Shown piece after piece: positions 45,001 through 47,755 of a stretch of DNA of 64,000 bases; positions within the stretch are counted from its first letter, which is position 1; each line of letters starts with the position of its first letter. The stretch lies in NCBI GenBank assembly GCA_964556135.1, contig CAZKUY010000006.1:1-64000 (forward strand), given 5' to 3'. The position numbers are program-made. The DNA is from an uncultured Pseudomonadota bacterium (GTDB lineage: Bacteria; UBA10199; JADFYH01).

Positions 45001-47755
45001 TCGAGTGAAGTGCTGCTGGCTTCTAAGAAAGAAATGAAAACTTTCTTTTGATCGTGGGACAGAATCAAGCGATCAGCGGTCGCGCCAGGGCTCGGGTTTT
45101 GCTTTGCACTGATTTGATTTTTTTCCAAATCGACAATGGCAAGTCCTTCGGCTCCTGCGGCCACTAAAGCCCATTTTCCATTATCGCTGATCTTTACATC
45201 TCGGGCATCACTGAGGGGAACATAGCTCAGGATTTGGCTTAGATCGCCCTTTAGCAAAACTGCTGGATCTGCTGTCGTGGGCATGCGCAACACATAGAGT
45301 CCTGATTTATATCCCACGCCCGATACCTTAGAGACAGCGGTAGCAAGCACGACGGAATTACCCATCACTTTTGCATCCATCCCGAAAGGTCGTGAGCTAT
45401 TGTTGCCTACGAGTCCTCCGAAAATTCTTTGAGCACTTAAGAAAGAGCGAGAGGCTTTGGGATCCATCGTAAAAGCTCTCAAAAAACCATCCGTATTACG
45501 AGGTGCAGGTTGAGAGCTTGCAGGATTGGTACTGGGAAGCGAAGCCGGAAGACTTTGCGGACTGTTTTGCGAACTTTCATCGTTCAGATTTGCGCCAAAA
45601 TTGAATTTAGAAAGTGAAGTGACCGCGAAGTCCGAAAAATAGGAAGAGTCGCCTAAACTCAAAGAAGATTTCAGCGAAAGGTCGCTGGTATTAATTTCAA
45701 GAAGGGCCGGCAGATTTGGATTTTGCATGCTGCCAAAATCCATAAGGAAAAGCGAATTTGAATTGGGGAGCAATTTTACAGCGCCTGCGGCTAAAGTTGA
45801 ATAAGAGATTTTAAAGTTTTCTACTTTGAGTCGAGTGGCGGGGCTTCCTACGGGGCTGAGCTTTAAAACTTTCAAAGCGGAAGCATCGGCTAAAATCGCC
45901 AAAGGAATATTGTTAAGAACTCCGCCCGCCATATCGAGAAGAATGGCAATTTTAAGATCGTTTGCAATATCCAAAGGCACTTCTGTTTTACTGCTCAAAT
46001 CAAAAACTCTTAATTCAAGACGATCTTTACTTTGAACGGCTAAAAGCACCTTAGAAGACTGAGGCAGAGGAGTCATTTTTTCGATAGGAGGATTGCCTTT
46101 GAGTCGAAAGCGTTGCTCATTGATCAGTTTTCCGGCAGCGCCTAGTTCGAAAACACGCAAACCATAATCACTGCCTAGTTTTCCTTCTTGGGCTCCGAGA
46201 GAAGTGACTAAGAAAAGTTTTCCCGCATTCTCGACGATATCTAAACCCGTGATATTGCCGCCCACTGGAATGGCCGCATTCAGAATTCCGCTCGAAGCAT
46301 CGAGAGAGCTAATGTTGTTTCGATCCGCGAGGTAAATCTTTTTCCCCACTAAAATCGCTTTTTTCAAATCTTGATAAGGGCCTTTGAGTTCTGCTTTTAA
46401 TTGAGGCTGGGCAGGATTACTCAGATTCCAGAGCAGGGCTTTGTCTTTATCTAAGGCTAGACCGAAAGCTTCTTCATTGCTGCTGGTGATTTTCAAATCT
46501 CGAAAGCTTACTGATTTCTGCACCAGATTTTTACTGACATTCTTTGTATCTGTTACATCCAAATACCACCACTCTCCTGATTCCGTGATGGCATAGAGAT
46601 AAGTTCTGCTTTTGAGAGTGAAAGCGCTTAATTCCAAAATAGGATTTTCGAGATTCACTTTATCGACAAGGTTGAACTGCGAATCATAAACTTCGAGAGT
46701 GCGACCTCGGGTGACATAGGTATTTTCCCCGAGACGTTCGACTTGTCGAGTGATTCCACCCAAATGACTTCTTAAACTGAGTTGAACGGGATAAGCGGTG
46801 ACTTTCACGTCTGAAGAAGCTTGTTCTGTCCCGTCCGAAACGCTGAGGCGAAGCACGAAGGGAGTGACTTCATTCACTTCGAGGATTTTAAAACTTCCTT
46901 GCAGGGCATCCCCTTTGACGATTTGGATTTTATCGGCAGGTCCTTGAGCTAAACCCCATTGATAGGTGAGGGCTTTTCCTGTGGCTGACAGCGCTTGAGC
47001 ATCGTCGATTAAAAAATAACCTCCCTCAGAAACTTTTTTTTCTATTCCAGCAGAAGCGCTGAGTGTTCCGGAATTTCCCACTGCGGCTGGTGCTGCCACG
47101 GCTCCTACTGGTGGAGATTCAGGATTACCAAAAAGAGAATTTTTTGCTGGAAGACTTTCGCCAAATAGATTGGGAGGCGGTGCTGCAGGAGGAGGCGGAA
47201 GTGCGGCTTGCGATTCAGCAATGGCAGGCTGAGATTGCGGTGCTTGGTCTAATTCAGGCTCAGGATTTGTGAGTTCCACATCACTCGTCGGCGTTTTCTT
47301 GAACCAAGACCGGATGCTTTTACAAGCCGTGAAGTTTAATAAAATAAAAACGAAAAGAAGGAGCAAGGCTCCTGTTCGAATCAACTTTTTTTGCATGCCT
47401 TTTTATATCATAGCCCAAGACAAGGGCGAAGGATTATTGGATGGAATCACAAGCCACAATGATGTGGTCATTTTCAATTTCAGCGGTACCGCCTGTAATT
47501 TCAAAGCTCTTCGTTTCGTTTTTGCTTTGAAAGGAAAGGGTTCCGGCTCCCAATCGTGTGATCATAGTCGCATGCCCGGGAAGAATCATGGCTTCCCCTT
47601 TTTCAGTAGGGATGAGCACTTGTGAAACTTCCTGAGGGGGAATGCTTTTTGTGGGTGTAGAAATTTCGATCTTCATGGTTTACGACTCTGTCTTCAACCA
47701 TTCGGTCGGCCGCCCAAGGGGCACCCGGCCTCGGTCATCTTCATGGTTAATGTTA

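What a model noticed while it worked through the whole genome (the two positions that open the first line are those of the whole stretch)
47674..47741. A mobile structured RNA-like element that sits only at start codons
The genome holds 31 copies of an undescribed 62-70 nt two-hairpin element (some with extra inserts, up to 140 nt), always in sense, that begins with ATG and ends on the ATG of a gene: 28 of 31 end exactly at the start codon of housekeeping genes (atpC here; also polA, aspS, icd, sucC, iscS, acpS, tmk), the other 3 lie 13-35 nt before it. It is mobile: it inserts at the start codon with the ATG duplicated, and marks different genes in relatives and in Elusimicrobia.
Evidence so far: nhmmer list of 31 copies with neighbours, frame check 28 of 31; intergenic DNA has 5804 ATGs on both strands against 1982 ATG starts, so an ATG target alone does not explain it. 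Contigs of a related strain skip exactly 63 and 140 bases at the two copies at C12:40661-40726 and C12:42939-43081, with 3-4 letters shared at the joint. Absent at the orthologous start in 7 of 8 same-genus comparisons. Of 36 loci from other genomes, 21 had a downstream gene with a match here and 19 of those genes lack the element here; 42 of 52 copies in other genomes precede an open frame; identical tandem copies follow an original GTG start (L247, call 170). Structure: 98.8% of cells paired, 12 of 17 pairs with tw [...]
(Added by a program. Inside this text positions count along the whole contig: contig position 1 is position 1 of the stretch shown here. "Call 12" and the like, gene names such as g00115 and contig names such as C1 are that model's own, and its searches are not shown. 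The text may have been shortened before it was handed on; [...] marks where a part breaks off. The agent that wrote the report below was given it as the finding of a first reader that could run no searches.)

Follow-up and report, generated by a model that had tools for sequence, protein, structure and literature searches.

The report
Mobile DNA dumbbell on start codons
A 62-base double-hairpin repeat comes and goes between strains of an uncultured bacterium and sits on the start codons of about 30 genes, whose ATG it rebuilds; it likely moves as folded single-stranded DNA with an enzyme not yet found, and its relatives sit in tRNA-gene loops.

Summary
Real and mobile. The genome holds 31 full copies, none in a reversed control; 29 end on the ATG of a long reading frame. 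Related strains lack two copies precisely, in 3 and 4 of 4 runs.

Corrections: (1) The element is TG...CA, inserted after the first base of the start codon, so the ATG duplication is only apparent. (2) It prefers starts right behind a promoter and lacking a Shine-Dalgarno site. (3) It folds as a nicked dumbbell whose C-GNA-G triloops and scarce G-T pairs suggest single-stranded DNA, not RNA. (4) 'Only at start codons' holds for one subfamily. A wider model hits 39 of 93 phylum genomes, mostly in T-loops of spare tRNA pieces.

Best reading: a non-autonomous ssDNA element pasted into exposed single strands by an unidentified enzyme; candidates tested were negative. No paper found. The scan reported analogous start-codon and T-loop hairpins on other DNA; here both habits occur in one family.

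The parts
47676..47737 (-). Whole element, 62 nt, TG...CA; its last base is the A of the atpC start codon
   Evidence: boundaries from covariation and nested or C-type copies
47701..47737 (-). Arm 1: end pair (base 1 T/C with A/G), symmetric loop read as tandem G-A pairs, GGCC/GGCC stem, 4-nt GGGT bulge, GCCC/GGGC stem, 3-nt loop
47676..47700 (-). Arm 2: TGGTT/AACCA stem, GNA/GNA internal loop, GAC/GTC stem, 3-nt loop; in mRNA predicted to cover the A and U of the start codon
   Evidence: mean arm-2 energy -8.3 kcal/mol as RNA over 75 copies
47738..47743 (-). Left copy of the 6-nt duplication TGAAGA (first atpC bases), the only duplication of 4 nt or more among 31 copies
47670..47675 (-). Right copy of TGAAGA, in atpC codons 1-3
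47694..47744 (-). Short upstream frame: ATG at 47744 (likely the original atpC start), in frame with the element's ATG at 47738, stops inside arm 2
   Evidence: sequence; 14 codons from 47738
47434..47676 (-). atpC (ATP synthase epsilon, 80 aa), the gene whose start is occupied
   Evidence: gene name from position in the atp operon and own knowledge
47753..49183 (-). atpD (ATP synthase beta), upstream gene
   Evidence: gene name from own knowledge

Best explanation
The element is a gene-less mobile DNA dumbbell that likely moves as folded single-stranded DNA and is likely pasted, by an enzyme supplied from elsewhere and not yet identified, into exposed single strands, here after the first base of promoter-proximal start codons, where its final A rebuilds the ATG. 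Steps: (1, shown) the top strand has two covarying arms whose ends meet at one nick of a continuous helix; (2, shown) insertion is usually blunt and precise, and empty sites exist; (3, shown) start-codon copies lie preferentially 4-10 nt behind a sigma70-type promoter and lack a Shine-Dalgarno site; (4, inferred) the target is the unpaired non-template strand at an open promoter, as the sister subfamilies' targets are hairpin loops (tRNA T- and D-loops, repeat loops, the element's own internal loop); (5, inferred) a break-and-join enzyme cuts at the nick, releases a closed dumbbell and joins it into the target; an HUH-type tyrosine transposase is the nearest working precedent; (6, inferred) the copy is tolerated because the gene keeps an ATG and gains a short leader with a weak hairpin and often a GGAG or GAGA stretch, and selection removes most copies that land inside genes.
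For: Covariation on 53 copies: 94.9% of 1007 cells paired, 9 of 19 pairs with two-sided changes, 0 of 500 shuffles as high, slid controls 33-45% paired. On 20 hand-picked copies of several subfamilies: 14 of 19 pairs with two-sided changes, including the end pair (13 T-A, 7 C-G) and four pairs of arm 2's closing stem. DNA signature: arm-2 loop is C-GNA-G in 35 of 72 parsed copies, with all four N, the loop that forms extra-stable mini-hairpins in DNA, with RNA counterparts much weaker (PMC13037366, passages); 8 one-sided (G-T type) against 91 two-sided changes; the sense strand folds better than antisense in 76 of 76 copies with DNA parameters. Cut after the first base; nested copies at GTTG| with the un-nested allele at the same gene (L096 vs L142; L296 vs L035). 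Promoter link: TAnnnT 5-9 nt upstream in 11 of 31 vs 66 of 791 background starts (p 4e-5); Shine-Dalgarno 4 of 31 vs 324 of 791 (p 0.001); promoter score median 5.05 vs 0.57 (p 8e-8), only in the 4-10 nt window, and 2.79 for 60 copies from other sources. Five G019 copies lie at CCGA|TAA or close variants behind a sigma28-like -10 box, which is melted DNA upstream of a transcript start (PMC12784957, passages).
Against: No mobilising enzyme or gene-bearing copy was found. Y1 transposase genes are absent from five multi-copy carriers (G002, G006, G023, G044, G075) and present in 78 of 93 genomes overall. There is no lagging-strand bias (17 of 36 copies vs 1171 of 1933 genes on the G-rich strand), unlike IS200/IS605 elements (recalled). 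24 of 72 arm-2 loops are GNRA tetraloops, which suit RNA equally, and the sense strand also wins in 70 of 76 copies as RNA. Several targets are operon-internal with no promoter score (atpC -0.8, C12:40722 -2.2). The window copy, the tRNA copies and the G019 copies come with target duplications that simple cut-and-paste does not explain. The sigma28 reading is uncertain: the upstream spacing is longer than canonical. The promoter matrices are approximate E. coli values from memory, and background starts come from my own codon model. Copies are related, so counts overstate independence, and the search patterns fixed parts of the 53-copy alignment.
Confidence: 0.55

Rival explanations
1. Same DNA element, but insertion is at almost any exposed R|TG and selection alone leaves copies at start codons, where they do no harm and become part of the leader.
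For: Sister subfamilies survive in frame inside genes (72, 72 and 75 nt in G016, one at an internal ATG), in spare tRNA pieces and at the groEL stop: the pattern of survivors of purifying selection. Decayed copies keep only the 3' arm next to the ATG.
Against: Intergenic DNA holds 6601 ATGs on both strands against 1933 predicted starts, yet 29 of 31 copies are at starts and the other two just upstream, including young polymorphic ones. Selection does not predict the promoter enrichment or Shine-Dalgarno depletion. Two 63-nt copies are open in frame, yet none sits inside a gene of this genome.
Confidence: 0.2
2. A mobile RNA (mini-intron or retro-element) that inserts into transcripts at start codons and tRNA loops, is copied back to DNA, and may be spliced out.
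For: All copies in this genome are in sense to a gene or tRNA piece. The G-A to A-C covariation (50 vs 21 of 72) fits isosteric RNA pairs (own knowledge). A clade of group IIB1 introns colonises start and stop codons, groEL among them (PMC12584367, passages), and one relative here sits at the groEL stop.
Against: 62 nt, no group I or II domains, no Rfam match. Reverse transcriptases are absent from 3 of 5 carriers searched, and the three found have no copy nearby. Triloops dominate. The start codon is rebuilt, so splicing is not needed.
Confidence: 0.15
3. A regulatory leader (translation or stability control) spread by gene conversion and kept for its function in mRNA.
For: Arm 2 covers the start codon with a weak hairpin; the same genes are hit in different genomes (atpC, sucC, two others).
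Against: Targets are functionally unrelated, differ between strains and genomes, and have precise empty sites; nested and tandem copies occur; no consistent frame relation between the upstream frame and the gene (lengths mod 3 of 8, 9, 14 in this genome).
Confidence: 0.07

Closest known systems
REP/REPIN elements with TnpA-REP (RAYT), and non-autonomous IS200/IS605 derivatives (PMC8266576, passages)
   Same: Short, gene-less, strand-specific hairpin repeats; mosaic and nested arrays; single-strand chemistry expected.
   Different: No conserved GTAG-type guide or C|T cut; two unlike arms with ends meeting at a nick; start-codon and tRNA-loop targets; no cognate Y1 gene beside any copy. This genome's RAYT-like gene has its own unrelated repeats.
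IS900/IS110-family elements that target translation initiation signals (title of Doran et al. 1997 seen in the reference list of PMC8141618; details recalled)
   Same: Insertion at the gene start region.
   Different: IS900 is an autonomous element that needs a fixed target sequence (recalled). Here no IS110 gene in 4 of 5 carriers searched, no target consensus beyond R|TG, and Shine-Dalgarno sites are depleted.
Group IIB1 introns of start and stop codons, e.g. Avi.groEL (PMC12584367, passages)
   Same: [quoted passage not shown]
   Different: Kilobase ribozymes with their own reverse transcriptase; this element is 62 nt with DNA-type loops.
Ssn (GIY-YIG) nucleases with NTS/SRM hairpin repeats (PMC11893778, passages)
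   Same: Directional single-stranded DNA hairpin repeats in high copy number.
   Different: No copy within about 1.5 kb of 44 distinct GIY-YIG loci of this phylum; SRMs are single 20-50 nt hairpins cut upstream.
Rickettsia palindromic elements, Neisseria REP2 and Borrelia IR repeats (PMC3184786, passages)
   Same: RPE-like in-frame insertions; REP2 and Borrelia IR lie just upstream of genes and carry an ATG.
   Different: REP2 and Borrelia IR bring their own promoter and ribosome-binding site; this element uses the host promoter and splits the codon.

Membership tests
REP/REPIN-RAYT | Conserved GTAG-type tetranucleotide 5' of the hairpin, cut at C|T | tested here: not met
   Alignments A1 and A2; junctions A|TG, G|GA, G|CG, C|GA
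REP/REPIN-RAYT | Cognate Y1 gene flanked by the repeats | tested here: not met
   15 Y1 loci searched with R2; only a tnpA pseudogene interrupted by a composite repeat
IS200/IS605 non-autonomous element | Strand-specific insertion, no target duplication, precise excision | tested here: met
   30 of 31 copies without a duplication of 4 nt or more; precise empty sites
IS200/IS605 non-autonomous element | Fixed 4-5 nt target 5' of the cut, read by a guide | tested here: not met
   No consensus upstream of the start codon in 91 flanks
IS200/IS605 non-autonomous element | Lagging-strand-template bias | tested here: not met
   17 of 36 vs 1171 of 1933, p 0.12, GC skew as proxy
IS200/IS605 non-autonomous element | Cleavage by TnpA on single-stranded DNA | not testable with these tools
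   needs a biochemical assay
MITE (DDE-derived) | Terminal inverted repeats and a fixed-length target duplication | tested here: not met
   Ends share only TG...CA; each end pairs with the middle, not with the other end
IS110/IS900 | DEDD transposase and a defined target around a core | tested here: not met
   PF02371 in 1 of 5 carriers, no copy beside it; no target consensus
Group II intron (start/stop-codon clade) | Six-domain ribozyme, GUGYG...AY ends, intron-encoded RT | tested here: not met
   62 nt, no Rfam match; RT absent in 3 of 5 carriers
Ssn/SRM | Small GIY-YIG gene flanked by the repeat | tested here: not met
   No hit with E below 0.1 in 30 and 15 GIY-YIG loci, one shared; most of the phylum's more than 250 matches were not fetched
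E. coli tRNA-linked repeats (RtT, RF00391) | Match to the Rfam model | tested here: not met
   Two tRNA-type loci gave no RtT match at E up to 1; distant kinship not excluded

The most novel reading that the evidence does not exclude
A new class of minimal mobile element: a closed or nicked single-stranded DNA dumbbell that an unknown enzyme, possibly riding on RNA polymerase, inserts into open promoter bubbles and DNA hairpin loops. One subfamily has become a start-codon parasite that turns leaderless genes into leadered ones, and it descends from elements that live in tRNA-gene attachment sites.
Probability: 0.35. Interest if true: 0.9.

Novelty: new variant of a known kind. Interest (0 to 1): 0.72.

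Why it matters
It shows a 62-base element rewriting the 5' ends of essential genes in living populations without breaking them, a route from leaderless to leadered translation. It ties start-codon insertion and tRNA T-loop insertion to one covarying structure, so both open puzzles can be studied with one substrate. The enzyme, once found, would be a strand-specific DNA inserter that needs almost no target sequence and favours transcription start sites.

Tried and rejected
No Rfam match. No copy in viral contigs, phages or plasmids; the one viral hit is a chance match in a coding region. No RNA holder listed among sequencing runs, so expression and splicing are untested. The 5'-end pattern in metagenomes gave 23 full copies by my regex among 121 loci, the rest mostly chance matches. 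Two Thermoguttaceae matches lack arm 1 and were dropped.

Mobiliser searches, all negative: Y1, RT, tyrosine recombinase (two per genome, likely XerC/D) and IS110 in 5 carriers; recurring neighbours of copies; Y1 profile over 93 genomes; GIY-YIG loci; gene-bearing long copy, 0 far-left candidates; proteome comparison with carrier G023, 311 non-syntenic best-hit pairs, of which those up to 520 aa were read by eye without a family scan. The 5'-half copy at C3:1425 lies before a metH-like gene, not a transposase.

Hammerhead, attC and dif-like readings were considered by eye and dropped: core letters and cut position do not fit (own knowledge). Designed translational coupling is not supported (ATGA overlap in 5 of 31 and 7 of 61). 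The phylum search repeated the same 93 genomes. Paper searches for a description found none; Williams 2003 on tRNA/tmRNA integration was not held.

Full report
The observation. The window copy lies on the minus strand at 47676-47737, between the atpD stop and the atpC start. A profile built from 73 standard copies finds 31 full copies and several partial ones in the 2.46-Mb genome, and nothing in the reversed genome. 29 of 31 end on an ATG that opens 66 codons or more; the other two precede a decayed second copy or a short spacer. Contigs of related strains skip exactly 63 and 140 bases at two C12 copies, in 3 of 4 and 4 of 4 runs from four studies. Three of these runs share substitutions and probably show one lineage. 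No empty allele of the window copy was seen in close strains. At atpC, G001, G003, G006 and G009 lack the element, and G002 has a different subtype at the same start.

Boundaries. The ATG at both ends is not a true duplication. Left codons vary (ATG 67, GTG 3, TTG 1, CTG 1 among 72 parsed of 86 distinct copies; ATA also occurs) while the right one is ATG, partly by my search pattern. A C-type copy in G016 reads A|CGACC...AAGCA|TG at a start codon. Nested copies lie after GTTG inside other copies, with the un-nested allele known for two loci (L096 vs L142; L296 vs L035); in L096 the last base is G, one mismatch to this model. So the element is YGAC...AACCA, pasted after the first base of the codon, and its last A restores ATG. 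The window copy is the exception: it has a 6-nt duplication, TGAAGA, the only one of 4 nt or more among 31.

Structure. Two arms covary. In 53 copies, 94.9% of 1007 cells pair and 9 of 19 pairs show two-sided changes; no shuffle reaches this, and slid controls pair 33-45%. Search patterns fixed parts of this alignment, and the copies are related. In 20 copies chosen across subfamilies, 14 of 19 pairs show two-sided changes, including base 1 with the base before arm 2 (13 T-A, 7 C-G) and four pairs of the arm-2 closing stem. The fold is thus a dumbbell whose two ends meet at one nick. Arm-2 loops are C-GNA-G in 35 of 72 copies, with all four N, and GNRA tetraloops in 24; arm-1 loops are 3-nt in 49 of 72. 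GNA triloops make extra-stable DNA mini-hairpins, with RNA counterparts much weaker (PMC13037366, passages). One-sided changes number 8 against 91 two-sided. The sense strand folds better in 76 of 76 copies as DNA and 70 of 76 as RNA. I read this as single-stranded DNA, not proven.

Target. Background starts in this genome are rarely leaderless: TAnnnT lies 5-9 nt upstream in 66 of 791 confidently predicted starts (of 1933), near the intergenic control (282 of 4155). It does so in 11 of 31 element sites (p 4e-5) and 13 of 60 sites from other sources. Shine-Dalgarno motifs are depleted, 4 of 31 vs 324 of 791. A promoter score is raised only in the 4-10 nt window: median 5.05 vs 0.57, p 8e-8, and p 6e-6 against starts without Shine-Dalgarno. 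The matrices are recalled approximations and the starts come from my own codon model. Some targets, atpC among them, are operon-internal with no promoter signal. There is no bias to the G-rich strand (17 of 36 full and partial copies, one later found to be tRNA-type, vs 1171 of 1933). Intergenic ATGs outnumber starts 6601 to 1933, so an ATG target plus neutrality does not give 29 of 31.

The wider family. The start-codon subfamily has several copies in 9 of 93 genomes of the class, in three families. The broader model R2 hits 39 of 93 at E up to 0.001, with 99 hits in G073; the phylum search returned the same 93 genomes. Of 30 best-hit loci from 29 other genomes, sorted by eye, 19 lie in the T-loop of a spare tRNA 3' piece (13 with an intact tRNA nearby), 1 in a D-loop piece, 3 at start codons and 7 elsewhere, one at the groEL stop. 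This genome has five T-loop copies behind intact Ser and Arg tRNA genes and one in a lone tRNA-like 3' piece. Others sit in frame inside genes (G016), in the loop of another hairpin repeat (G055), inside a larger modular repeat (G073, G021), and in five G019 loci at CCGA|TAA or close variants behind a duplicated sigma28-like box. In GCCGATAA the A before that cut is the flipped-out -11 base (PMC12784957, passages), but the spacing upstream is not canonical, so this reading is weak. The common theme is DNA that is unpaired or looped, and insertions that leave the host function intact.

The enzyme. Not found. Y1 genes occur in 78 of 93 genomes and are missing from five multi-copy carriers; 15 Y1 loci and four RT or IS110 loci hold no flanking copy except a pseudogene interrupted by a composite. 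GIY-YIG genes, a lead from earlier scan notes, had no copy nearby in 44 distinct loci. No right half with a distant left half was found, and no recurring neighbour or shared orphan gene stood out. These are incomplete metagenome assemblies, so absence is weak evidence.

Mechanism and rivals. Best supported (0.55): a non-autonomous single-stranded DNA element cut at its nick and joined into exposed strands, here the non-template strand at open promoters. Selection alone on near-random insertion (0.2) explains the sister subfamilies but not the promoter link. A mobile RNA (0.15) has the start/stop-codon group II introns as precedent (PMC12584367, passages) but lacks domains and an RT. A regulatory leader (0.07) does not fit the turnover. 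No RNA data were available.

Novelty. It works like REPIN or IS200/IS605-derived miniature elements but fails their defining tests (PMC8266576, passages), and it is not an IS110, MITE, group II intron or Ssn repeat. Ten paper searches showed no description; six of them aimed at this question. All papers were seen as listings or passages only, no supplements were read, and subscription papers are not searched. A sequence look-up in the scan's notes found nothing. Word look-ups list analogous start-codon hairpins in CPR bacteria and DPANN archaea and T-loop hairpins in other lineages; these are unchecked notes, and I did not test homology to them. What this locus adds is one covarying family that spans both targets, with strain-level empty sites.

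Noticed in passing
G000 C5:49986-50048, C7:95804-95939, C7:100527-100587, C9:57349-57410, C10:11494-11629: Five family members in the T-loop of duplicated tRNA 3' pieces right behind intact tRNA-Ser and tRNA-Arg genes.
   Followed up: partly
G000 C1:269093-269154 (-): Family member in a lone tRNA-Glu-like 3' piece beside an AbiE-like toxin-antitoxin pair, possibly the far end of an integrated island.
   Followed up: partly
L305-L334 (G073); L382, L467, L468 (G021): Dozens of near-identical dumbbells nested in a larger modular hairpin repeat with a conserved right end; one composite interrupts an IS200-type tnpA pseudogene (L373).
   Followed up: partly
L293:12563-12634, L294:2055-2129, L295:2236-2307 (G016): In-frame insertions of 72-75 nt inside panE-like, dnaX-like and low-complexity coding regions (gene names by eye).
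   Followed up: partly
L391, L452, L453, L454, L461 (G019): Five copies at a duplicated sigma28-like -10 box with a shared upstream block; may be promoters or another repeat.
   Followed up: partly
L402 (G033): Copy inserted at the groEL stop codon, supplying TGA.
   Followed up: no
L379, L462-L466 (G055): Copies inserted in the loop of another REP-like hairpin repeat.
   Followed up: no
L040 (G000 C8:13430-14119): RAYT-like Y1 gene flanked by its own GTAG-type repeats, unrelated to this element.
   Followed up: partly
G000 C23, C26, C29: Contigs with GC 0.51-0.54 against 0.44; C23 encodes a retron-like RT among phage-like genes; possible contamination or prophage.
   Followed up: no
L045 (G000 C6:144276-145901): 541-aa RT, Abi-like by eye, next to a type I restriction specificity subunit.
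   Followed up: no
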